From Shigella phage JK32, in sequence record MK962753.1: a stretch of DNA of 64,000 nucleotides; one strand, written 5' to 3'. The translations under genes and the position numbers were made by a program. Position 1 is the first letter of the stretch, and the number at the start of each line of letters is the position of its first letter. The notes under the pieces are model-generated. The model had not been told where the DNA came from, did not search any database, and saw only the letters and a list, made by a program, of their open reading frames with translations. Positions 2,060-50,715 of the stretch are shown here, one piece after another.

Positions 2060-2755
2060 ATGGAAAAGAACGAATTACTGATCGAACAATGGGGCGCTCC
2101 TTGTGCTCGCGGTAGTTCGTCATTGCTTGAATCATTTGATGATAAGGCTACAGGAAATCTCTATATTCAAGGGATTTTCCTACAAGCCGAAACAGTAAAC
2201 CGTAATAAACGCTGGTATCCACGCGCGGTACTGGAAAAAGCGGTTACTAAATACATTCATGAACAAGTTGAGACACATCAAGCTCTGGGCGAACTGAATC
2301 ATCCAGCAAGGGCAACACCAGATCCATCTAATGCTTGCATCATAATTGAAAAATTGTGGTGGGAAGGTAATAACGTTATGGGTAAAGCTCGCGTTATTGA
2401 AGGTGATAAAGGGGTCGGTGATAAACTCGCTGCATTGATTCGCGCTGGCTGGATTCCTGGCGTTTCCTCCCGTGGATTGGGTCGTTTGAAAGATTCTGGA
2501 CGCGGTTACAATATTGTACAGGAAGGTTTTGTGTTAACGGTTGGTGTCGATGTTGTTTGGGGTCCAAGTGCTCCTGATGCGTGGGTCAAACCAGTGGTTG
2601 AATCAGAAGATATTGATTCTAGCGTCTCAGACGCACCAGAAATCGATAAATTCGAAAAAACGATTAACCCTACACCCTCACAAGAAAACATCGTAGAATC
2701 GAATAATAACGCGTTTATGGCGTTGGCAGAGGCGCTATCTAAACGATATAAATAA
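2060..2755 (+). CDS. 21: Prohead core scaffold protease gp21
   Basis: Resembles T4 gp21 (LIEQWG..., GELNHPA... region), synteny. Confidence 0.88.
   Translation: MEKNELLIEQWGAPCARGSSSLLESFDDKATGNLYIQGIFLQAETVNRNKRWYPRAVLEKAVTKYIHEQVETHQALGELNHPARATPDPSNACIIIEKLWWEGNNVMGKARVIEGDKGVGDKLAALIRAGWIPGVSSRGLGRLKDSGRGYNIVQEGFVLTVGVDVVWGPSAPDAWVKPVVESEDIDSSVSDAPEIDKFEKTINPTPSQENIVESNNNAFMALAEALSKRYK
2747..2754 (+). promoter_or_regulatory. T4-type late promoter (TATAAATA) for gene 22
   Basis: Exact TATAAATA about 30 nt upstream of gene 22 start, overlapping the end of gene 21. Confidence 0.6.
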
Positions 2756-2785
2756 TATTACGTTATCAACAAGAAGGTTATAACC

Positions 2786-3580
2786 ATGCTTAAAGAAATG
2801 CTGCTCGAAGAAGCAAAACAGATCACCGTCGATGTTGCTCTCGATGATCTGTTTGAATCCGTCGAACTGTCGCCGGAAGTAAAAGAAAACTTTGGTACTA
2901 TCTACGCTCAAGCGGTAAAAGCTAATGCAGTTGCACTGGCAGAAAGCCACATTGAAAAAATTGCCGCTAAAGCCGATGAACTGGTAGAATCAAAGGTAGA
3001 AGAAGCTCGCACCGAAATCGAAGCTAAACTCTACGAAGATGCAGATAAATTCCTGAATCATCTGGGCGCTAAATGGCTGGCTGAAAATAAAGAAGCTGTT
3101 ACCCGTAATATTAAAGCGGATCTGTGCGAATCCCTGATTGGTTCCCTGAAAGATGTTTTCGTTACTCACAATGTTGTAGTACCGGAAGAATCTGTAGACG
3201 TTGTTGCGGAACTGGACGAAGCACTGAAAGAAGAAAAAGAGAAAACCGCTGAACTCTTTGACGCTAAACTGACTCTGGAAAGCGAAATTCGCGGCATGAA
3301 GCGTGAGCAAGCTATTACTGAAAGCACTCGTGATCTGTCCGATACCCAGAAAGAAAAAGTTACCGCGCTGATCGAAGGTCTGGAATATAGCGAAACCTTT
3401 GATAAGAAATTGACTGCAATTGTTGAGATGGTTGCCAAGAAAGAAGAAAAACCAACTCACATTGAAGAATCACTAAATACTGATGCCGACAAGCTGAATG
3501 TTATTGTTGAAGCTGTCGAAGAATCAGAGAAAAAAGCAACTGTAGATACTGGCGTTTCTCGCTACCTGAATTATCTCTAA
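2786..3580 (+). CDS. 22: Prohead core scaffold protein gp22
   Basis: 264 aa highly acidic, alpha-helical (E/K/A-rich) protein between 21 and 23. Confidence 0.85.
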   Translation: MLKEMLLEEAKQITVDVALDDLFESVELSPEVKENFGTIYAQAVKANAVALAESHIEKIAAKADELVESKVEEARTEIEAKLYEDADKFLNHLGAKWLAENKEAVTRNIKADLCESLIGSLKDVFVTHNVVVPEESVDVVAELDEALKEEKEKTAELFDAKLTLESEIRGMKREQAITESTRDLSDTQKEKVTALIEGLEYSETFDKKLTAIVEMVAKKEEKPTHIEESLNTDADKLNVIVEAVEESEKKATVDTGVSRYLNYL

Positions 3581-3597
3581 TATAATTCGATCTACTT

Positions 3598-3605
3598 TAT
3601 AAATA
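3598..3605 (+). promoter_or_regulatory. T4-type late promoter (TATAAATA) for gene 23
   Basis: Exact TATAAATA about 32 nt upstream of the gene 23 ATG. Confidence 0.7.
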
Positions 3606-3637
3606 CTTTAGGTTAACAACAAACAAGGTTTAAAAAC

Positions 3638-5224
3638 ATGAAAACTACCAAAGAACTGATGGAAAAATGGTCTCCGCTGCTGGAAAACGAAAAACTGCCG
3701 GAGATTGCAACCGCATCTAAACAGAAACTGGTTGCTAAAATTCTGGAATCTCAGGAAGCAGATTTTGCAGTAGATCCGATTTATAAAGATGAGAAAGTAG
3801 TAGAAGCGTTTGGTGGCTTTATCACCGAAGCAGAAGTTGCTGGCGACCACGGTTACGATGCTTCCAAAATTGCCGCAGGTCAGACTACTGGCGCAATCAC
3901 CAACGTAGGTCCGGCTGTTATCGGTATGGTTCGTCGTGCTATCCCTAACCTGATCGCATTTGACATTTGCGGCGTTCAGCCGATGAGCACCCCGACTAGC
4001 CAGATCTTTGCAATCCGTTCCGTATATGGTGGCGATCCGCTGAAAGAGGGTGCTAAAGAAGCATTCCATCCGATGTATTCCCCGGATGCGTTCCATAGCT
4101 CTCTAGCTGCTAAAGATGCAACCGCTGCTAACCCGGTAGGTACTGCATTCGCTAAACTGACTATGAATACTGCAATCAATGGAGGTGATATTGTTCATCA
4201 CACCTTTGCAGAAACTGGTATTGCATATCTGCAAAACGTAAGCAGTCAGGCTGTTACCCCGTCTAAACAGGGTCAGGAATCCGACGATGAAGCAGTAATG
4301 AAACTGATCGAAGAAGGCAAACTGGCTGAAATCGCACACGGTATGGCTACTTCCATCGCGGAACTGCAAGAAGGCTTTAACGGTTCCCAGAATAACCCGT
4401 GGAACGAAATGTCAATGCGTATTGACAAACAGGTTGTTGAAGCGAAATCTCGTCAACTGAAAGCCCGTTATTCTATCGAAGTTGCTCAGGATCTGCGTGC
4501 TGTACACGGTATGGACGCTGACGCCGAATTGAATGCTATCCTGGCTAACGAAGTTCTGCTGGAAATCAACCGTGAAATCGTTGACGTAATCAACTTTACC
4601 GCTCAGGTTGGTAAGACTGGCATGACTCAGACCGTTGGTTCTAAAGCTGGTGTATTCGATCTGCAAGATCCGATTGATACCCGTGGTGCTCGTTGGGCTG
4701 GTGAATCCTTCAAATCTCTGATCTACCAGATTGACAAAGAAGCTGCTGAAATCGCTCGTCAGACTGGTCGCGGTGCTGGTAACTTCATTATCGCTTCCCG
4801 TAACGTTGTAAACATTCTGGCTTCTGCTGATCAGGGTATTAGCGTAGCAATGCAGGGCGCTGCTCGTGGTCTGAATACCGACACCACTAAAGCTGTTTTC
4901 GCTGGTGTTCTGGCTGGTAAGTATAAAGTATTCATCGACCAGTATGCTCGTCAGGACTACTTCACCGTAGGTTACAAAGGCGACAACGAAATGGATGCTG
5001 GTATCTACTACGCACCGTATGTTGCTCTGACTCCGCTGCGTGCAACTGATCCGCAGTCTTTCCACCCGGTTCTGGGCTTCAAGACTCGTTACGGTATCGG
5101 TATTAACCCGTTTGCTGATAGCAAGTCTCAGTATCCGAGTGCTCGTATCACTTCCGGTATGTTGAGCAAAGAAAGCGTAGGTAAAAACGCTTACTTCCGC
5201 CGCGTATGGGTGAAAGGTTGCTAA
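3638..5224 (+). CDS. 23: Major capsid protein gp23
   Basis: 528 aa; long stretches match recalled T4 gp23 (e.g. GPAVIGMVRRAIPNLIAFDICGVQPM, SIAELQEGFNGS, NAYFRRVWVKG). Confidence 0.97.
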   Translation: MKTTKELMEKWSPLLENEKLPEIATASKQKLVAKILESQEADFAVDPIYKDEKVVEAFGGFITEAEVAGDHGYDASKIAAGQTTGAITNVGPAVIGMVRRAIPNLIAFDICGVQPMSTPTSQIFAIRSVYGGDPLKEGAKEAFHPMYSPDAFHSSLAAKDATAANPVGTAFAKLTMNTAINGGDIVHHTFAETGIAYLQNVSSQAVTPSKQGQESDDEAVMKLIEEGKLAEIAHGMATSIAELQEGFNGSQNNPWNEMSMRIDKQVVEAKSRQLKARYSIEVAQDLRAVHGMDADAELNAILANEVLLEINREIVDVINFTAQVGKTGMTQTVGSKAGVFDLQDPIDTRGARWAGESFKSLIYQIDKEAAEIARQTGRGAGNFIIASRNVVNILASADQGISVAMQGAARGLNTDTTKAVFAGVLAGKYKVFIDQYARQDYFTVGYKGDNEMDAGIYYAPYVALTPLRATDPQSFHPVLGFKTRYGIGINPFADSKSQYPSARITSGMLSKESVGKNAYFRRVWVKGC

Positions 5225-43904: not shown

Positions 43905-44108
43905 TTAACCGTATACGCGAAAGTATTCTACTGATCCGTCGCTATACTGTTTTACATTGAATGTATTCACACCATGATCATTGCTCATAATGACATATAC
44001 ACTACGACGCTCATCACCAAACGGGTTAACTGGTGCGGGTTCAATTTCAACATTAAAACCACGTTTAGCAAGTGCTTCGCCTAATTGCTTGAGTTTATCG
44101 GTAAACAT
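43905..44108 (-). CDS. Hypothetical protein (67 aa)
   Basis: ORF upstream of cd. Confidence 0.5.
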   Translation of the reverse strand: MFTDKLKQLGEALAKRGFNVEIEPAPVNPFGDERRSVYVIMSNDHGVNTFNVKQYSDGSVEYFRVYG

Positions 44109-44986
44109 TAAAAGTCTCCGTAGTTAACCTGAAAACATTCTACACCAATTGATCGGTACATGTCAACCACTTGATCACGGTCATCTACTGCCAACACAAC
44201 ATGATAACGCGGTGCAATTTCAGAGAAGAAAATCTCTTTCTTCACTTCATGATCAGGACGACGATCATTAGTTTCACGTTGAAAGTGATCACTAGGTTCG
44301 ATACCTTGTTCACGCAACCATTGCAGCGTATCTTCCTCGCAAACATCCTCACGTCCTGAGCACGTAATGATACGATAGCCATTATCACGATACAGTTTAA
44401 GCATTTCGATCACTTGCGGACGCGGTTTATCTTCTTTGACCTTTGTCCAGTCAAACGGATGACGACCGCCCTTATCCGCTAATGTTCCATCAATATCAAA
44501 GATCACTGCCTTCGGCAGCATGGTATTCGGTTTGTATACTTCTTGACCCATATATTCCTGCATCAGATAAAATTGGTTACGCAAATGAGAAAGTGGAATT
44601 GCTTTCTCGCCGCGATAGAAATTACGTTTCTTTAGTGTCTCAAATGATTCATTGAACACCTGTTCAGTATACACCGCGTTAAATTCTTTTGCAAGTTCTT
44701 TGTAGAATACACGATGTTTTTCTTTCAGGTTAGTATCAGAGACAATGATACTCAATCCGCGTGATAGAGTCTCACGAGCAATCATTCTCTGAATAGACTC
44801 TACCAGCTTTTCTTTTTCCTTAGTATACTTGTATTTCAAAAGTGAGTCAACACCAAACAACATAAGACGAAGATCATCGCGATTCACATTACGATAATTA
44901 CTAAACCGTTTACATGTTTCCATAGCCCATGTAGTTTTACCAGACCCAGAACAACCAACGGTTAAAATCACTTCACATTTCGGCAT
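44108..44986 (-). CDS. pseT: Polynucleotide kinase / 3'-phosphatase
   Basis: Walker A TVGCSGSGKTTWA, phosphatase motif VIFDIDGTLA, C-terminal VECFQVNYGDF resemble T4 Pnk; start at ATG 44986 with RBS AAGGAGA. Confidence 0.9.
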   Translation of the reverse strand: MPKCEVILTVGCSGSGKTTWAMETCKRFSNYRNVNRDDLRLMLFGVDSLLKYKYTKEKEKLVESIQRMIARETLSRGLSIIVSDTNLKEKHRVFYKELAKEFNAVYTEQVFNESFETLKKRNFYRGEKAIPLSHLRNQFYLMQEYMGQEVYKPNTMLPKAVIFDIDGTLADKGGRHPFDWTKVKEDKPRPQVIEMLKLYRDNGYRIITCSGREDVCEEDTLQWLREQGIEPSDHFQRETNDRRPDHEVKKEIFFSEIAPRYHVVLAVDDRDQVVDMYRSIGVECFQVNYGDF

Positions 44987-45438
44987 TATTTCTCCTTCGG
45001 TTTGCACCGTTCCTCATTAAGTTCTTTGCGATAATAACACATGATCAACTTACTTTCAAGTGTATATCTCTTGATATCCGCAAGCCAGACTCTGAATTTT
45101 TGGGAGTCCTCCCACGACATAGAAACTCTAGGTTTACCGTCTATTGTATCCACTTTCAGGTCAATGTCAACTTTTTCTATTGGTGCTGGTAGTGGAGGAT
45201 GTAATTTCGGTTCCTGTGAATAATGGTCCATTGTACACGAAGAAAGAGCAAATACAATAGGTACAGCGAAGACATGGATTATGGCGGTCTGAAAATTCTT
45301 ATGTGCTTTCTTAAACATCCAGTGTATCACGAAAATTGAAAACACCATCAGGATAATAATGCTTGCACCTATCCCCAGATAATCAACCAGATTAAAATTG
45401 CTTATCTGCTCTTGCGTAGGCAATATTTCTATGCTCAT
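44986..45438 (-). CDS. Outer-membrane lipoprotein, o-spanin candidate (start uncertain)
   Basis: Internal signal peptide with lipobox (FALSSC) followed by Pro-rich region; an internal start around 45318 is possible. Confidence 0.45.
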   Translation of the reverse strand: MSIEILPTQEQISNFNLVDYLGIGASIIILMVFSIFVIHWMFKKAHKNFQTAIIHVFAVPIVFALSSCTMDHYSQEPKLHPPLPAPIEKVDIDLKVDTIDGKPRVSMSWEDSQKFRVWLADIKRYTLESKLIMCYYRKELNEERCKPKEK

Positions 45439-45756
45439 TTAGTAGCCTCCTTTAATTCTTCGGTAAACTCCTTAAATGAATCATTAAGCTGTTTCTCTAC
45501 CAACTTGGGTTTTTGTGCTACTACATAGCCTCGTGTAGCGTCTTTCATTGCTTTGTTTTGTTCTTCGGCAAACTTAGTTCTTATTCCGTACATCTCCTTT
45601 TGTAGCGAGTCTACAATCTTCATCTTCTCATCTGTCTTTTTCTTATACTCTGTAAATTCCTGATTCAGTCGATCTACCTCCTTTTTATTTTCCCACCACA
45701 TATTGCCACCTATCCCCAACAACACAGATATGATAACAATGTATATCAGCTTTGAC
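45435..45756 (-). CDS. Type II membrane protein with coiled coil, i-spanin candidate
   Basis: Start at ATG 45756; single N-terminal TM helix then K/E-rich helical domain; ATGA-coupled to next gene. Confidence 0.5.
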
Positions 45757-45773
45757 ATATTACCCCCAACGAC

Positions 45774-45800
45774 AAAAGGCGGGGAACTAGCCCCGCTTAT
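45774..45800 (-). terminator. Hairpin terminator after rnlA
   Basis: GCGGGG-AACTAG-CCCCGC flanked by A-run and TTATTATT. Confidence 0.55.
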
Positions 45801-45802
45801 TA

Positions 45803-46972
45803 TTACCAATCAATCTTATCAGCCGGAATTAGTTTCTTATAATTCCGTAGATAGTAAGTTTTCATTGAAGCCAGAATACGGTCATAATCAAGACCATCAA
45901 ATGCAATCATCAGACACATGAAAATATATGCTTGTGCATCACCATGTTTACGTGATTCGATAGTCGCATTGGATGCATATGTCTTTCTGTCTTCTCCCGC
46001 GTGTGCGTTATAAAATTCTGTTGCTGTCGTGAAGGCATTGCGAAGAATAGACCTGAATGCTTCCTCGAATAGCTCGATTCGTTCCAGTGCTTCCGGTTCG
46101 CCTTCATATGCAGCACGCAAATCATCGGTTTCACTTTCTACGACATAGTAGATCAGGTTATTAGGAAACATCGATGTGTTTTTAATGTTATGCACACCAA
46201 TATACCATTCACTCTTCACCTTGAACATTTGACCGTCTTTAGTGCGTGCAACAATTCCTTCGATACCTTCTGCGGTCCGAACTTCATCAAGAATATTGCT
46301 AAAACGCGCTGAATCAACCTGTAACGCATTTACCAGATGAGGACGTAGGATTGCATCAGCAAATAGCATTTGATGCGGTACATACTCTCCTGTGACGTTA
46401 TGGCGTACATTCAGAAGTGTTAGCGACGGTTCAGAATATTCTACAACAATTCGGTTGCTGGGTGCTGTATATTCAAAGTTGAAAGTATAATCAGACCCGA
46501 TATCGGCGATCTTAGCGCGTAGATCCGCATACTTCTCTGAATACAGAAGACCGTTTGCTCTCTCCGCTTGGCTTGAGTACAAGGCCGCTTTAGACTTCAA
46601 CTGAACATAGCCGTTATCAATGTATGTGCTTACTAGACTACCGTCCATTTTGTCCATGACCATTTCCACATCTTCCGGCTTAAAGCGAGAGCGTTCATTC
46701 TCACCTAAATTAAAAAACTTCTCCATAGGACGAGATGCAATGCGGACAGGTCGGTCTTTATCATCGATTTCAAACATGATCCCGCGACACTCTAACGCAT
46801 CTGGTTTATTCCACATTTCCGGTTTGCTCAAGTACAAATAACTAAAAATGCGCATACGGGTTTGCATCGCCGTAATTTCATCTTTGTAATAGAACGTATC
46901 AGATCCGTCACATAGTGTCATCAGATTTTTGAACAATGCTAAAACTTTTTTGTTGTTTTCTTTTGTTGACAT
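45803..46972 (-). CDS. rnlA: RNA ligase 1 (gp63)
   Basis: Resembles T4 RnlA (PDALECRGIMFE, VRIASRPMEKFFNL, KxDG-type motif DKMDGSL). Confidence 0.88.
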   Translation of the reverse strand: MSTKENNKKVLALFKNLMTLCDGSDTFYYKDEITAMQTRMRIFSYLYLSKPEMWNKPDALECRGIMFEIDDKDRPVRIASRPMEKFFNLGENERSRFKPEDVEMVMDKMDGSLVSTYIDNGYVQLKSKAALYSSQAERANGLLYSEKYADLRAKIADIGSDYTFNFEYTAPSNRIVVEYSEPSLTLLNVRHNVTGEYVPHQMLFADAILRPHLVNALQVDSARFSNILDEVRTAEGIEGIVARTKDGQMFKVKSEWYIGVHNIKNTSMFPNNLIYYVVESETDDLRAAYEGEPEALERIELFEEAFRSILRNAFTTATEFYNAHAGEDRKTYASNATIESRKHGDAQAYIFMCLMIAFDGLDYDRILASMKTYYLRNYKKLIPADKIDW

Positions 46973-47369
46973 AATTTGTGTTCCATTCTGGTTTAAATTT
47001 GGTGATCAAAACAGGTTCTTCGATATCGGCAGTGCTTATAATATCTTTACCCGTTGGATTCTCTATGTACAACTCAAAGCACTGGCGGTAATAGAATGTT
47101 ACTGTCTTCCCTTCCTCTAGCGCCTTATGAATATTCTTACTCTTGCGAGTATCCGCCGTTGGTGTCTGTCTGTTAATGCTAGTCCGGTAATAGTTGATCC
47201 GCTTTCTGAGATTAACAGTCTGACCAATGTATACCAGTTCATCATCAACCGCAATAGCGTAAAGAACATTTAAACGGTTCTTCTGAGGCGGTAGAATCAC
47301 ATCACCATCTTTACACTCTAAACATGAATATTTAACGAATCCATAGTTTTCTATTAGCTCATTAATCAT
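46908..47369 (-). CDS. GIY-YIG homing-endonuclease-like protein
   Basis: VLYAIAVDDELVYIGQT....R fits the GIY-(10 aa)-YIG spacing plus conserved Arg; overlaps rnlA start. Confidence 0.6.
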   Translation of the reverse strand: MINELIENYGFVKYSCLECKDGDVILPPQKNRLNVLYAIAVDDELVYIGQTVNLRKRINYYRTSINRQTPTADTRKSKNIHKALEEGKTVTFYYRQCFELYIENPTGKDIISTADIEEPVLITKFKPEWNTNYVNKRKQQKSFSIVQKSDDTM

Positions 47370-47391
47370 TATCCTTTCCTCACGTCACAAC

Positions 47392-47412
47392 AAAGGCGGG
47401 ATTTCTCCCGCC
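47392..47412 (-). terminator. Hairpin (minus strand)
   Basis: GGCGGG-ATTTCT-CCCGCC. Confidence 0.45.
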
Positions 47413-47419
47413 CACCTTA

Positions 47420-47818
47420 TTAACTTTCCAGAATATCGCGAGCTTCGTTACGCTCCTTGATGATTTTCAGGACAAATTCCAGTTTTTCTTTGTTCAGTGT
47501 TCCGTTTTCCATTGCTTCTTTGACGGTAAGCACTCCGCCACCTTGCCCGTATACAGTGACAGTGATTTCACCTAACATCGTGGTATGAAAACCGCCAATT
47601 TTCGGTGATTCGAAAGAAACAATCACCTCACGGATAGTATTGCCATCGTTGATTTCTTCCAGCGTAATATCGCTTTTGTAAGCGGTTGCTTTAACCATAC
47701 GGATCAGCATAGTCTGATCTGGGGAGATGGTCATTTTGTCCATTGCATGTTGCAATGCAGCGTAACCGAAAACTTTAACGAAGTCCAGAACGTCTTTGCG
47801 AGTTTGAAATTTAATCAT
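47420..47818 (-). CDS. Hypothetical early protein (132 aa)
   Basis: ORF with RBS AAGGAG downstream of promoter cassette. Confidence 0.55.
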   Translation of the reverse strand: MIKFQTRKDVLDFVKVFGYAALQHAMDKMTISPDQTMLIRMVKATAYKSDITLEEINDGNTIREVIVSFESPKIGGFHTTMLGEITVTVYGQGGGVLTVKEAMENGTLNKEKLEFVLKIIKERNEARDILES

Positions 47819-47854
47819 CTTGATACTCCTTAGTAAGTTAGTTTCGTTTCGATG

Positions 47855-47895
47855 GGGGTATATTACTACCCCCGTTTCAGGCTGTCAACTACTTT
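47855..47895 (-). promoter_or_regulatory. PeSL-like early promoter cassette, copy 10
   Basis: TTGACA-17 nt-TAATAT; palindrome GGGGGTA..TACCCCC overlaps the -10. Confidence 0.6.
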
Positions 47896-48107
47896 TTAAT
47901 GACAAGTTCGAATTTTGCTACCTTACGTCCTCGTTTATTGAAAGCAACCCACGGACGGTTTTCAATGTAGAACAATTCTTCACCAATAATGAATACTGGC
48001 TGATTGTAAAGGCGACCCATCAGGTCACGCTGGCGAATGGTAGTAGATTCGTATACTTCGCCTACTACAAAGTGTTTGCTGATAGAGTCGGTGCAGATAA
48101 ATTTCAT
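47889..48107 (-). CDS. Hypothetical early protein (72 aa)
   Basis: Start at ATG 48107 with RBS AAGGAGA; the ORF-track N-terminal extension (..SKQRRIKMK) would translate the promoter leader. Confidence 0.5.
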   Translation of the reverse strand: MKFICTDSISKHFVVGEVYESTTIRQRDLMGRLYNQPVFIIGEELFYIENRPWVAFNKRGRKVAKFELVIKK

Positions 48108-48129
48108 TTTGATTCTCCTTTGTTTCGAT

Positions 48130-48170
48130 GGGGGTATATTACTACCCCCGCTATTCAGTGTCAACTACTT
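48130..48170 (-). promoter_or_regulatory. PeSL-like early promoter cassette, copy 11
   Basis: Near-identical to copy 10: TTGACA-17 nt-TAATAT with GGGGGTA..TACCCCC. Confidence 0.6.
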
Positions 48171-48171
48171 T

Positions 48172-48390
48172 TTACTTGTTGTATTCATTCCACCATTGGG
48201 TTAGCTTATCAATTATTTTTGTGTTTCTATCCAACTTCTCCCACCGTTTTCGAGGGTTTATCAACCGGAATAGGTAAGGTGTACTTGTTAAGTGAACTCG
48301 GTCAATGTAGTGATTGATGTACTGCTTTTCAATTCTAAGTTTCATCTTTTTACGATGAAAATATGCAATGACTTGTTCTTCTGTTTCCAT
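48172..48390 (-). CDS. Hypothetical early protein (72 aa)
   Basis: ORF with RBS GGAGGA downstream of promoter cassette. Confidence 0.5.
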   Translation of the reverse strand: METEEQVIAYFHRKKMKLRIEKQYINHYIDRVHLTSTPYLFRLINPRKRWEKLDRNTKIIDKLTQWWNEYNK

Positions 48391-48409
48391 ATGTTCCTCC
48401 GTTTCGATG

Positions 48410-48450
48410 TGCGTATTATGCTATGGTAAGATCCGATTGTCAACACCCAA
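48410..48450 (-). promoter_or_regulatory. Early promoter cassette, copy 12
   Basis: TTGACA-17 nt-CATAAT. Confidence 0.55.
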
Positions 48451-48490: not shown

Positions 48491-48967
48491 TTAATCATGA
48501 CCGTGATTTGCAATATCCGCTCGCGTCTTGTCTTTGTGATTTCCTACGTCAAAGACACGATAGCCGTTTTCTCTAAGAACTTTAATCACTTCTGGGTTAT
48601 CCTCAAAGACTCCGACAACTTCATCTTTATCAAAGGATTTAATTACCTCTAATTTGATGTGATAGTCTTTACGGGAATCGGTACGGCCTCTCATAAAGAT
48701 TTTATCAAAACACACTCCGTTAGAAATTAACCAATCAATTGTTTCCATGTAAGCATGTGAACTTCGTCCGGTGAGGATGTAAATCAAATGACCGTTGTCA
48801 GAAAGAGCATTGATAACACGAATTACATCGTAAATGGGGGAATCTCCCCCACATGCCTTGTTATATTCGATCCATGACTCGACTTTATCAAGATTTTCGG
48901 TTGGCATCTTTGCTAGTCGATGCGTTGGATCTGTGATCGTAAAATCTAAATCGACAAAATATATCAT
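48491..48967 (-). CDS. HAD-superfamily phosphatase-like protein
   Basis: N-terminal DxDxT motif (FVDLDFTIT) and downstream ILTGRS. Confidence 0.5.
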   Translation of the reverse strand: MIYFVDLDFTITDPTHRLAKMPTENLDKVESWIEYNKACGGDSPIYDVIRVINALSDNGHLIYILTGRSSHAYMETIDWLISNGVCFDKIFMRGRTDSRKDYHIKLEVIKSFDKDEVVGVFEDNPEVIKVLRENGYRVFDVGNHKDKTRADIANHGHD

Positions 48968-50124
48968 AGATATTTCCCGAATCGGTTGTAGTCGTCGTCT
49001 GTTAAATCGGTATTAACCTGAGATACCAGATACATAATCTCTACTTCTTGCGCCGCGTTTTGAACTTCGTCAGAGTTCAACCATTTACGCATCCACGGTA
49101 AAGGATGACGACGAACACTAAACGGGCTTTTCAGTCCGGCAGCACGCATACGGGAATCTGCCAGGTATTCTACATAGGTTTTCAGAATTTCCGGTGACAG
49201 GTTAGGAATTGCCCCCATTGCGAATAGGTGGTCTACCCATTCTTTTTCTTGCTCGACAACATCCAGAAAGATTTTCGTTGCTTCGTCTTCAAGTTCTTCC
49301 GCAATCTGTTTCCACTCATCACCGTCAGCCCCCGTTTGCCATTGACGAATAATGTATTGTGTGCCTTTTAAGTGAAGTTGTTCATCACGCGCAATAAATT
49401 TCATGATCTTCGCGTTACCTTCCAGTAAACCACGTTCGGCAAAGCTGAAAGTACATGCAAAGGACACATAAAAACGGATTGCTTCCAAAGCATTAACGCA
49501 GTGTGCACACAGATAAATCGACGCCATCAGATCTCGTTTTGTATCTTCAAAAAATCTTCTTGCATCATCTAATGCTGTCTGGTCTTCTCGGTCTTCCCAA
49601 TAGCGGAGATCTTCTTTTGCATTCTCATACTTACGAATCCAATAAAGAACATCATCATAATATTGCCCGATAGATTCCGCTCGCTTCATGATAGCAGGGT
49701 TATCGATGATCTGGTCAAACTCACTAGCCGGATCAATGAAACAGTTACGCATAATGTGAGTATAACTGCGGCTATGAATTGTCTCGCTGAATGTCCATGT
49801 TTGCAACCATGTATCGAGAGTCGGATCAGATACAATTGGACCAAATGCTGCGGACGGTGCGCGACCTTGAATAGAATCAAGTAATGTCTGATACTTCAAG
49901 TTTTCTGTAAAGAAACGTTTTTCAACATCGCCCATATTAAGATATTGAATACGGTCGGTTGCAAGTGAAATCTCTTCTGGACGCCAGAAAAATGACAGAG
50001 ATTTTTCAATTAATTCTTCAAATACTTGATGACGCTGAATATCATAGCGAGCGATACCCAACCCACTACCCAGAAACATTGGTTCGTTCATAATATCAAC
50101 ATGTTCGCGGTTAAATACGCTCAT
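48964..50124 (-). CDS. nrdB: Ribonucleotide reductase small subunit NrdB
   Basis: 386 aa; di-iron RNR beta-subunit features; synteny with nrdA. Confidence 0.9.
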   Translation of the reverse strand: MSVFNREHVDIMNEPMFLGSGLGIARYDIQRHQVFEELIEKSLSFFWRPEEISLATDRIQYLNMGDVEKRFFTENLKYQTLLDSIQGRAPSAAFGPIVSDPTLDTWLQTWTFSETIHSRSYTHIMRNCFIDPASEFDQIIDNPAIMKRAESIGQYYDDVLYWIRKYENAKEDLRYWEDREDQTALDDARRFFEDTKRDLMASIYLCAHCVNALEAIRFYVSFACTFSFAERGLLEGNAKIMKFIARDEQLHLKGTQYIIRQWQTGADGDEWKQIAEELEDEATKIFLDVVEQEKEWVDHLFAMGAIPNLSPEILKTYVEYLADSRMRAAGLKSPFSVRRHPLPWMRKWLNSDEVQNAAQEVEIMYLVSQVNTDLTDDDYNRFGKYL

Positions 50125-50139
50125 TAATTCACCTCACTA

Positions 50140-50307
50140 TCACTTTTTAACACAAAAGAACTTAGTATTTCTGTTTATTTCTCTATCCTGTTGCAATTCC
50201 TGCATGGCTTCAAAACAACTTTGATGTGATGAAAACTCTACGCTGGTAACAGTTCCTTTATTATATACCCCGACACTAACGGAAAGCAATAACCATAATG
50301 TAGCCAT
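50140..50307 (-). CDS. Small hydrophobic-N-terminus protein (55 aa), paralogue pair member
   Basis: MATLWLLLSVSV...; TAATG coupling; homologous to 50307..50480. Confidence 0.4.
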   Translation of the reverse strand: MATLWLLLSVSVGVYNKGTVTSVEFSSHQSCFEAMQELQQDREINRNTKFFCVKK

Positions 50308-50480
50308 TAGTTCACCTTCTGCTTTTCAATGCAATACAGATTCATAAAGCGTTTATTGTCTTCGCGGATAATCTCGCGAGCTTTAACGCAATCCTGCTTT
50401 GTTGCAAATTCAATGCTTGACATGTTTCCGTAATTATACATTGAATTGCTTATTGCAATCAATAACCATACAGTAGCCAT
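50307..50480 (-). CDS. Small hydrophobic-N-terminus protein (57 aa), paralogue pair member
   Basis: MATVWLLIAISNS...; TAATG coupling at both ends. Confidence 0.4.
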   Translation of the reverse strand: MATVWLLIAISNSMYNYGNMSSIEFATKQDCVKAREIIREDNKRFMNLYCIEKQKVN

Positions 50481-50647
50481 TATCCGACAACCTCAAAACA
50501 TTTATCATCAGGAAGAATAGCCCATTCTACGCCGTATTCATCCTCAACGTAGTAGCAAGTCCCATCATGTCGAGCATCATATACATCACCGACAACAAAG
50601 CTATCAGCTAGCTCAAAATCTACAGCAACACATTTTAATTTTGCCAT
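50480..50647 (-). CDS. Small hypothetical protein (55 aa)
   Basis: Start at ATG 50647 with RBS GAGGA; the ORF-track upstream extension would translate the promoter. Confidence 0.45.
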   Translation of the reverse strand: MAKLKCVAVDFELADSFVVGDVYDARHDGTCYYVEDEYGVEWAILPDDKCFEVVG

Positions 50648-50674
50648 AATAAAATCCTCATTTGTTTTTGATGG

Positions 50675-50712
50675 TTGTATTATAGCGGGGATTTCTCCCC
50701 GCGTCAACACTT
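50675..50712 (-). promoter_or_regulatory. PeSL-like early promoter cassette, copy 13
   Basis: TTGACG-17 nt (CGGGGAGAAATCCCCGC)-TATAAT. Confidence 0.6.
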
Positions 50713-50715
50713 ATT

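What the first reader, a model, noticed from the sequence alone, without database searches (positions are those of the whole stretch)
46908..47369. GIY-YIG endonuclease-like gene overlapping the start of rnlA
The 153-aa ORF has the GIY-(10)-YIG spacing and conserved Arg (VLYAIAVDDELVYIGQT…R) of GIY-YIG homing endonucleases (Seg-like), and its 3' end overlaps the annotated rnlA start by about 65 nt.
Basis: partly seen in the sequence, partly recalled or inferred. Interest (0 to 1): 0.4.

Follow-up and report, generated by a model that had tools for sequence, protein, structure and literature searches.

The report
denA (endonuclease II) gene of RB49-like phage
The flagged ORF is the already known and annotated denA gene (phage T4-type endonuclease II, a small GIY-YIG nuclease that starts host-DNA breakdown) of an RB49/JSE/ECD7-like coliphage, not a Seg-like homing endonuclease, and its overlap with the RNA ligase gene rnlA is real but ordinary.

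Summary
A 153-aa ORF lies on the minus strand at 46908..47369. It has the GIY-YIG motifs (VLY35-37, YIG47-49, R57, E118, N130). Its last 65 nt overlap the longest rnlA ORF (45803..46972).

The protein is the ortholog of T4 endonuclease II (DenA): 52% identical to T4 EndoII and to crystal structure 2WSH (E 7.5e-39), and PHROG 1111 "endonuclease" (E 1.9e-52). It sits in the conserved nrdB–denA–rnlA–pseT order. The window is a Krischvirus (96–99% nt identity to JSE, ECD7, RB49), where the gene is already annotated denA.

It is not Seg-like. It has one domain and no DNA-binding module, shows no similarity to I-TevI, and occupies a fixed locus in about 1150 phage records.

The overlap is conserved in 56 of 58 Krischvirus records. 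JSE differs by one extra A in an A6 run, probably a homopolymer error. Comparable 38-nt overlaps occur in a Morganella and an Aeromonas phage. T4 has a 52-nt spacer instead.

Homology to the T4 Rnl1 N-terminus favours the upstream rnlA ATG (46972), but public annotations disagree (389 vs 372 aa).

One question stays open, and the literature already raises it: how a phage lacking hydroxymethylcytosine tolerates an EndoII. Low novelty, low interest.

The parts
46908..47369 (-). denA, endonuclease II (EndoII), 153 aa. The GIY-YIG core is residues 1-136. A 17-aa C-terminal tail (KRKQQKSFSIVQKSDDTM) is encoded in the alternative frame of the rnlA 5' end.
   Evidence: ORF. PHROG 1111 E 1.9e-52. PDB 2WSH EndoII E 7.5e-39. 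52% identity to T4 DenA. Annotated denA in JSE, RB49 and ECD7. T4 residues K12, Y37, Y47, G49, R57, K76, E118 and N130 are all conserved (alignment A1).
47370..47419 (-). Intergenic leader of denA. It holds a G+C hairpin followed by a T-rich run (47413..47394, terminator-like) and then the Shine-Dalgarno sequence GAGGAAAGG 4-12 nt before the ATG.
   Evidence: Sequence; terminator scan. T4 and Morganella phage MP1 have an equivalent hairpin directly before their denA ATG.
46908..46972 (-). 65-nt denA/rnlA overlap. The rnlA ATG (46970-46972) is embedded in DenA codons N133-Y134-V135. The denA stop TGA (46908-46910) lies across rnlA codons C21-D22. The overlap contains an A6 run (about 46944-46949).
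   Evidence: Identical length in 56 of 58 Krischvirus records. Only 2 of 65 sites vary among six genomes.
45803..46972 (-). rnlA, T4-type RNA ligase 1 (gp63), 389 aa from the upstream ATG. An alternative start at 46921 (M18) would give 372 aa and a 14-nt overlap.
   Evidence: TIGR02308 E 4.5e-183 with residues 12-386 aligned to profile positions 2-373. PDB 9DO4/2C5U/5TT6, with T4 M1 aligned to V10. Pfam T4_Rnl1_C and RNA_lig_T4_1.
45779..45796 (-). Terminator-like hairpin immediately after the rnlA stop, closing the denA-rnlA two-gene unit.

Best explanation
The ORF is denA of a Krischvirus (RB49-like T4-type coliphage). It encodes endonuclease II, a small single-domain GIY-YIG nuclease.

By homology with T4 EndoII it should assemble into dimers and tetramers, bind two DNA duplexes, and make one-metal-ion (Glu118/Arg57/Tyr) single-strand nicks and occasional double-strand cuts at loosely defined sites in cytosine-containing DNA. 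That starts host-chromosome breakdown and nucleotide salvage early in infection.

denA is transcribed together with rnlA as a two-gene unit bounded by hairpins. Here the T4 intergenic spacer has been lost. The denA reading frame therefore runs on into rnlA until the first stop in that frame (ATG-TGA over the conserved Cys21 codon of RnlA). This adds a 17-aa tail to DenA.

rnlA most likely starts at the ATG embedded in DenA codons 133-135 (46972). It would then be translated by ribosomes coupled to denA translation, because it has no good Shine-Dalgarno sequence of its own.

Shown here: identity of the gene, conservation of catalytic residues, synteny, and conservation of the overlap.
Inferred: enzymatic activity, oligomeric state, choice of rnlA start, and translational coupling.
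For: Identity of the gene:
- PHROG 1111 'endonuclease' E 1.9e-52 over residues 3-136.
- PDB 2WSH (T4 endonuclease II E118A) E 7.5e-39 over residues 3-134.
- BLASTP against T4 DenA: 52% identity, E 5e-48.
- Pfam GIY-YIG just above the gathering score.

Catalytic and binding residues: those defined for T4 EndoII (K12 in the N-terminal region, G49, R57, K76 in the middle region, E118; PMC2764454), together with Y37, Y47 and N130, are invariant in alignment A1.

Context:
- The window is 96-99% identical to 58 Krischvirus records in which the ORF is annotated denA.
- The gene order nrdB ... denA-rnlA-pseT.3-pseT.2-pseT matches T4.
- Purifying selection: 14 synonymous against 2 non-synonymous variable codons.

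Overlap:
- It is present in 56 of 58 Krischvirus records.
- Overlaps of 38 nt occur in Aeromonas phage AsFcp_2, where the rnlA ATG sits in the same ...EWN.HY context and there is no internal Met.
- A 38-nt overlap also occurs in Morganella phage MP1. A 4-nt GTGA overlap occurs in Karamvirus UFV01.

rnlA start:
- T4 Rnl1 residues 1-9 (MQELFNNLM) align with residues 10-18 (VLALFKNLM) of the long ORF.
- TIGR02308 starts matching at residue 12.
- A start at M18 would therefore remove conserved residues, and the only start codon upstream of them is the ATG at 46972.
Against: No activity data exist for any Krischvirus DenA.

According to the literature, Krischviruses lack gene 42 (dCMP hydroxymethylase), denB, alc and ndd (PMC2993671 Table 4; PMC12115623 Table 4). 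alc is indeed missing between rnlA and pseT.3 in the window. The T4 rule 'phage DNA is protected by hydroxymethylcytosine' therefore cannot apply as such, and the target selectivity or role may differ.

The ATG at 46972 has only a weak GGA 11-13 nt upstream. ECD7, Brandy and phiS annotate the internal ATG at 46921. That ATG lies 11 nt before the denA stop and could serve for termination-reinitiation.
Confidence: 0.93

Rival explanations
1. It is a free-standing GIY-YIG homing endonuclease (Seg-like) that has inserted next to rnlA and promotes its own spread by cutting genomes that lack it.
For: It shares the GIY-YIG catalytic motifs with the Seg proteins and I-TevI. T4-type genomes do carry many such elements, some of them nearby, for example the homing endonuclease between nrdB and nrdA in JSE and MP1.
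Against: The protein has 153 aa and no C-terminal DNA-binding domain; Pfam finds only the catalytic domain. There is no pairwise similarity to I-TevI (E 0.94). TIGR01453 scores 14 bits against a cut-off of 56. It is orthologous to T4 EndoII at 52% identity. It occupies a fixed syntenic position in all 58 Krischvirus records and homologs occur in 1150 phage records across many genera, and Petrov et al. list it as a quasi-core gene (PMC2993671).
Confidence: 0.02
2. The gene is denA, but the Krischvirus protein has a changed job. Because the phage's own DNA carries ordinary cytosine, the enzyme may be restrained or retargeted, and the 17-aa tail or tight coupling to rnlA could be part of that adaptation. 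Possible means include a phage cytosine methyltransferase, an inhibitor, timing, or action only on particular structures or plasmids.
For: Krischvirus lacks gene 42, denB, alc and ndd but keeps denA and gene 56 (PMC12115623 Table 4; PMC2993671). PMC8056088 explicitly raises the question and suggests a phage DNA-cytosine methyltransferase might protect the genome. RB49 performs generalized transduction, so host DNA is not fully destroyed. The tail is conserved in 56 of 58 Krischvirus records.
Against: All catalytic and DNA-binding residues are unchanged. The tail is explained simply as read-through into rnlA: similar tails in MP1 and AsFcp_2 end at or near the same rnlA position, and T4 EndoII works without it. 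No methyltransferase motif was seen in this 64-kb window, though that was only a crude motif scan. There is no functional evidence either way.
Confidence: 0.3
3. rnlA starts at the internal ATG (46921, M18). The true overlap would then be only 14 nt (ATGACACTATGTGA), with RnlA made by termination-reinitiation at the denA stop.
For: ECD7, Brandy and phiS annotate it this way. The ATG lies 11 nt upstream of the denA stop codon. The upstream ATG lacks a good Shine-Dalgarno sequence.
Against: Residues 10-17 (VLALFKNL) align with the T4 Rnl1 N-terminus MQELFNNL and with TIGR02308 from profile position 2. In Aeromonas phage AsFcp_2 the homologous internal position is Ile, so only the embedded upstream ATG is available there. 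In MP1 the T4-like MQKLF start has a strong Shine-Dalgarno sequence upstream of the internal Met. M18 itself has no Shine-Dalgarno sequence either.
Confidence: 0.25

Closest known systems
Bacteriophage T4 endonuclease II (DenA; PDB 2WSH)
   Same: 52% identity over the whole 136-aa core. The same N-terminal region, GIY-YIG core and middle-region insertion. All residues shown by mutagenesis to matter are conserved (K12, G49, R57, K76, E118). The same neighbours (nrdB upstream, rnlA downstream), and a hairpin directly in front of the start codon.
   Different: It has a 17-aa C-terminal extension and a 65-nt overlap with rnlA, where T4 has a 52-nt spacer. The phage lacks hydroxymethylcytosine synthesis, denB, alc and ndd, so the T4 self/non-self logic does not transfer directly.
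denA of Krischvirus RB49 / ECD7 / JSE (NP_891795, ASJ80313, ACL78180)
   Same: The protein is 100% identical to ECD7 DenA and about 99% identical to RB49 DenA, with the same 153-aa length and the same overlap.
   Different: JSE alone has A7 instead of A6 in the overlap, giving a 143-aa DenA and an rnlA annotated from an ATG in another frame. This is probably a homopolymer sequencing error.
GIY-YIG homing endonucleases (I-TevI, SegA-G)
   Same: They share the catalytic GIY-YIG motif set (Tyr, Tyr, Arg, Glu, Asn).
   Different: Homing enzymes are two-domain monomers of about 200-250 aa with a C-terminal DNA-binding domain and a sporadic distribution. This protein has one domain, is probably tetrameric, is syntenic, and has no detectable pairwise similarity to I-TevI.
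GIY-YIG restriction endonucleases Eco29kI / Cfr42I
   Same: They are also single-domain GIY-YIG nucleases without a separate DNA-binding module, and Cfr42I is a tetramer (PMC2764454).
   Different: They recognise a strict site (CCGCGG) and pair with a methyltransferase. No sequence match to them was seen here.

Membership tests
GIY-YIG nuclease superfamily (PF01541) | 'GIY' and 'YIG' tyrosine motifs about 10 residues apart | tested here: met
   VLY35-37 and YIG47-49. Y37, Y47 and G49 are invariant in alignment A1. Pfam PF01541 scores 22.8 bits against a gathering cut-off of 22.6.
GIY-YIG nuclease superfamily (PF01541) | Conserved Arg after the YIG motif, a metal-binding Glu and a C-terminal Asn | tested here: met
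   R57, E118 and N130 are invariant and align with the same residues of T4 EndoII / 2WSH.
GIY-YIG nuclease superfamily (PF01541) | The alpha/beta GIY-YIG fold | not tested
   No model was built. The fold is inferred from 52% identity over the full length of crystal structure 2WSH.
T4 endonuclease II (DenA) family, PHROG 1111 | Full-length sequence orthology to T4 EndoII, including the N-terminal region (K12) and middle region (K76) | tested here: met
   PHROG 1111 E 1.9e-52 with residues 3-136 aligned to profile positions 2-138 of 139. BLASTP against T4 DenA E 5e-48. K13 (T4 K12) and K76 are conserved.
T4 endonuclease II (DenA) family, PHROG 1111 | Conserved genomic position between nrdB and rnlA | tested here: met
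   Window order is nrdB (48964-50124), small ORFs, denA, rnlA, pseT.3, pseT.2, pseT. T4, MP1 and UFV01 have the same order.
T4 endonuclease II (DenA) family, PHROG 1111 | Nicking or cleavage of cytosine-containing but not modified DNA; tetramer binding two duplexes | not testable with these tools
   These are biochemical properties known only for the T4 enzyme (PMC2764454).
Seg-like / intron-encoded GIY-YIG homing endonucleases | Two-domain architecture: N-terminal GIY-YIG domain, linker, and C-terminal DNA-binding domain | tested here: not met
   The protein has 153 aa. Pfam finds only the catalytic domain. The last 17 aa are read-through into rnlA.
Seg-like / intron-encoded GIY-YIG homing endonucleases | Sequence membership (TIGR01453, similarity to I-TevI or Seg proteins) | tested here: not met
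   TIGR01453 scores 14.3 bits against a cut-off of 56.05. BLASTP against I-TevI gives E 0.94.
Seg-like / intron-encoded GIY-YIG homing endonucleases | Sporadic presence/absence among close relatives (mobility) | tested here: not met
   Present at the same locus in all 58 Krischvirus records, with homologs in 1150 phage records.

The most novel reading that the evidence does not exclude
Krischvirus EndoII is an active host-DNA nickase in a phage whose own genome carries ordinary cytosine. Self-protection would then rest on a mechanism not yet identified, rather than on hydroxymethylcytosine. Candidates are a phage cytosine methyltransferase, a protein inhibitor, timing, or altered site preference. 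The conserved overprinted 17-aa tail or the coupling to rnlA might contribute. The literature already poses this question (PMC8056088); this window adds no direct evidence for it.
Probability: 0.3. Interest if true: 0.45.

Novelty: already known. Interest (0 to 1): 0.08.

Why it matters
It matters little beyond annotation hygiene. The gene is a textbook T4-type function that is already annotated in the closest relatives.

Two modest points of value came out of the check.
- The comparison across genera (Krischvirus, Angelvirus, Gualtarvirus, Karamvirus, Tequatrovirus) shows that the denA-rnlA junction is plastic: a spacer, a 4-nt overlap, a 38-nt overlap or a 65-nt overlap. It argues for the upstream rnlA start, which would correct the 372-aa annotations in ECD7, Brandy and phiS and the truncated ones in MP1 and UFV01.
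- It is a reminder that RB49-type phages keep EndoII without cytosine modification. That is an acknowledged but unresolved question about self/non-self discrimination.

Tried and rejected
1. Seg-like homing endonuclease. Rejected on architecture, sequence and distribution.
2. The JSE variant (143-aa DenA, 394-aa RnlA) as evidence that the overlap is variable. Rejected, because it comes from one extra A in an A6 run found only in the JSE genome (2 records of 58). It is most simply a homopolymer sequencing error, or at most a strain-specific mutation.
3. Programmed frameshifting at the A-run to make a DenA-RnlA fusion. Considered only from the sequence. In the denA frame the run reads CAA-AAA-AGT, and a -1 slip reaches a TAG two codons later. 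A +1 slip would be needed to enter the rnlA frame. There is no X-XXY-YYZ heptamer in frame and no supporting evidence, so it was not pursued.
4. Extra constraint on the overlap. It has 2 of 65 variable sites, against 17 of 397 in denA-only and 53 of 1105 in rnlA-only sequence. There are too few differences to say anything.
5. A crude motif scan of the window for cytosine or adenine methyltransferase motifs found nothing convincing. This is not a proper domain search and covers only 64 kb of the roughly 165-kb genome.
6. The large protein-database searches, structure prediction and fold search were deliberately not used. The match to a solved structure of the T4 ortholog at 52% identity made them unnecessary.

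Full report
**Observation.** The minus strand of the window carries an ATG-initiated ORF of 153 aa at 46908..47369. The sequence GAGGAAAGGATA-ATG precedes it, and a G+C-rich hairpin followed by a T-rich run lies at 47413..47394. The next ORF downstream on the same strand, 45803..46972 (389 aa from its first ATG), is T4-type RNA ligase 1. The evidence is TIGR02308 at E 4.5e-183 and the Pfam families RNA_lig_T4_1 and T4_Rnl1_C. The two ORFs share 46908..46972, which is 65 nt. The described feature is therefore real and at the stated coordinates.

**What the ORF is.** Profile and structure-sequence searches identify it as endonuclease II.
- PHROG 1111 'endonuclease' matches at E 1.9e-52 over residues 3-136.
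- The only significant PDB match is 2WSH, 'endonuclease II' of phage T4, at E 7.5e-39 over residues 3-134.
- BLASTP against T4 DenA gives 52% identity and E 5e-48.
- Pfam GIY-YIG just passes its gathering score, 22.8 against 22.6 bits. This is typical of this divergent branch.

The residues that the Carlson laboratory showed to matter in T4 EndoII are K12 (N-terminal region), G49, R57, K76 (middle region) and the metal-binding E118 (PMC2764454). In an alignment of the window protein with T4, Morganella phage MP1, JSE and RB49, all of these are invariant, as are the motif tyrosines Y37 and Y47 and N130 (A1). Among six Krischvirus genomes the non-overlapping part of the gene shows 14 synonymous against 2 non-synonymous variable codons. 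It is a protein-coding gene under purifying selection.

**Where the window comes from.** The 2.2-kb region is 96-99% identical to 58 phage records of the genus Krischvirus, including JSE, ECD7, RB49 and Phi1. In these records the ORF is annotated 'denA, endonuclease II'. The DenA protein is 100% identical to that of ECD7. The gene order nrdB, small ORFs, denA, rnlA, pseT.3, pseT.2, pseT is that of T4, except that alc is absent between rnlA and pseT.3. tblastn finds DenA homologs in 1150 phage records (Escherichia, Klebsiella, Shigella, Aeromonas, Yersinia and others). [quoted passage not shown]

**Why it is not a Seg-like homing endonuclease.** GIY-YIG homing endonucleases are two-domain proteins with a C-terminal DNA-binding module (PMC2764454 introduction). 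Four tests argue against that reading here.
- Pfam finds only the catalytic domain.
- The group-I-intron endonuclease model TIGR01453 scores 14 bits against a cut-off of 56.
- Pairwise comparison with T4 I-TevI finds nothing (E 0.94).
- The gene is fixed at one locus in every relative rather than sporadic.

The sub-family and biology (homing) are not.

**The overlap.** T4 has a 52-nt spacer between denA and rnlA, with a strong Shine-Dalgarno sequence (AAAGAGGATACACA-ATG) in front of rnlA. In the window the homologous stretch reads ACAAAAGAAAACAACAAAAAAGTT. The Shine-Dalgarno sequence has decayed and the position of the T4 ATG is GTT (V10 of the long ORF). The denA frame has no stop at the T4 position. 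It runs on until ATG-TGA, which lies over the conserved Cys21 codon of RnlA, and this adds the tail KRKQQKSFSIVQKSDDTM.

The same thing has happened elsewhere.
- In Morganella phage MP1, denA ends at the homologous ATG-TGA and overlaps a T4-like MQKLF... rnlA start by 38 nt.
- In Aeromonas phage AsFcp_2, denA and rnlA overlap by 38 nt. The rnlA ATG is embedded in the DenA codons ...EWNKHY, the same context as ...EWNTNY in the window.
- In Karamvirus UFV01 the two genes share GTGA.

The junction is therefore evolutionarily plastic, and the DenA tail is best seen as a by-product of losing the spacer. T4 EndoII, which has 136 aa, is active without it.

**Conservation within the genus.** An 86-nt probe across the overlap matches 85 nt in 56 of 58 Krischvirus records. 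It matches 86 nt only in the two records of phage JSE. JSE has A7 instead of A6. That truncates DenA to 143 aa and led its annotators to start rnlA at an ATG in another frame. As a singleton in a homopolymer, this is most simply a sequencing error.

**Which rnlA start.** Public annotations disagree. RB49 and UPWr_E1 use the ATG equivalent to 46972 (389 aa, 65-nt overlap). ECD7, Brandy and phiS use the internal ATG equivalent to 46921 (372 aa, 14-nt overlap).

Homology favours the upstream ATG.
- T4 Rnl1 residues 1-9 (MQELFNNLM) align with residues 10-18 (VLALFKNLM).
- The NCBIfam equivalog model aligns from residue 12.
- No other start codon lies upstream of these residues in the ORF.
- AsFcp_2 has Ile at the internal position and must use the embedded ATG.

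Neither ATG has a good Shine-Dalgarno sequence. Expression probably depends on ribosomes translating denA (inference). Termination-reinitiation at M18 cannot be excluded. I put about 0.7 on the upstream start.

**Mechanism.** By homology, the protein should act as in T4. It would form dimers and tetramers that bind two duplexes and make Mg2+-dependent nicks, and fewer double-strand cuts, at weakly specified sites in cytosine DNA. This initiates host-DNA degradation and nucleotide salvage (PMC2764454).

What does not transfer is the self-protection rule. Krischviruses lack gene 42, denB, alc and ndd (PMC12115623 Table 4; PMC2993671). RB49 performs generalized transduction. PMC8056088 already notes this and speculates that a phage cytosine methyltransferase might protect the genome. 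A crude motif scan found no methyltransferase in this window. This remains an open question that others have already posed, and nothing here advances it.

**Verdict.** Novelty: already known. Interest: low.

Noticed in passing
window 47840-47898, 48116-48174, 48395-48423 (minus-strand signals): A repeat spaced about 276-279 nt apart. Each copy has a G+C hairpin (GGGGGTATATTACTACCCCC) and a sigma-70-like TTGACA-17-TAATAT, and each stands in front of a small ORF of 72-91 aa. UPWr_E1, SSG23, SFHK24 and FL04 match in two pieces spanning about 220-280 nt more than the query somewhere in this 2.2-kb region; where the extra DNA lies was not located. The units resemble the promoter-early/stem-loop (PeSL) cassettes described for RB49-type phages. 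That resemblance is from my own knowledge and was not checked in a paper here.
   Followed up: partly
L001 (JSE) about 4250-4262; window about 46944-46949: The JSE record has A7 where the other 56 Krischvirus records have A6. This gives a 143-aa DenA and a 394-aa RnlA annotated from an ATG in another frame. It is probably a homopolymer sequencing error in the 2008 record.
   Followed up: yes
L004 (Morganella MP1) 2504-2956 and 2943-4037; L011 (UFV01) 2079-3044: These look like mis-annotations. MP1 denA is annotated as only 132 nt although the full ORF is intact, and its rnlA is started at an internal Met instead of the MQKLF start with its Shine-Dalgarno sequence. UFV01 rnlA is annotated about 50 codons short; a GTG overlapping the denA stop (GTGA) gives the T4-like N-terminus.
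   Followed up: partly
window 45435-45809 / 45803: alc, the T4 inhibitor of transcription of cytosine DNA, is absent between rnlA and pseT.3. This is consistent with the genus lacking the hydroxymethylcytosine system. The pseT.3 ORF stop overlaps the rnlA stop region.
   Followed up: partly
window 48491-48967 (-): A stand-alone 158-aa HAD phosphatase resembling the phosphatase domain of polynucleotide kinase/phosphatase (PF25109, E 2.9e-13). It lies just downstream of nrdB (4-nt overlap) and is additional to the full-length pseT at 44108-45007.
   Followed up: no
window 50125-50715 (-): Between nrdA and nrdB the window has three small ORFs, two of them paralogous (MATLWLL... and MATVWLL..., 55 and 57 aa). 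JSE and MP1 have a homing endonuclease gene at this position.
   Followed up: no
window 47420-47818 (-): A 132-aa ORF immediately upstream of denA. It matches PHROG 10173 (unknown function, E 1.4e-68) over its full length and has no Pfam hit.
   Followed up: no
L005 (T4 NC_000866) 4518-4952: RefSeq annotates T4 denA as 144 aa, starting at a GTG inside the upstream hairpin. The characterised enzyme is 136 aa from the ATG (MKEIATEY...).
   Followed up: no
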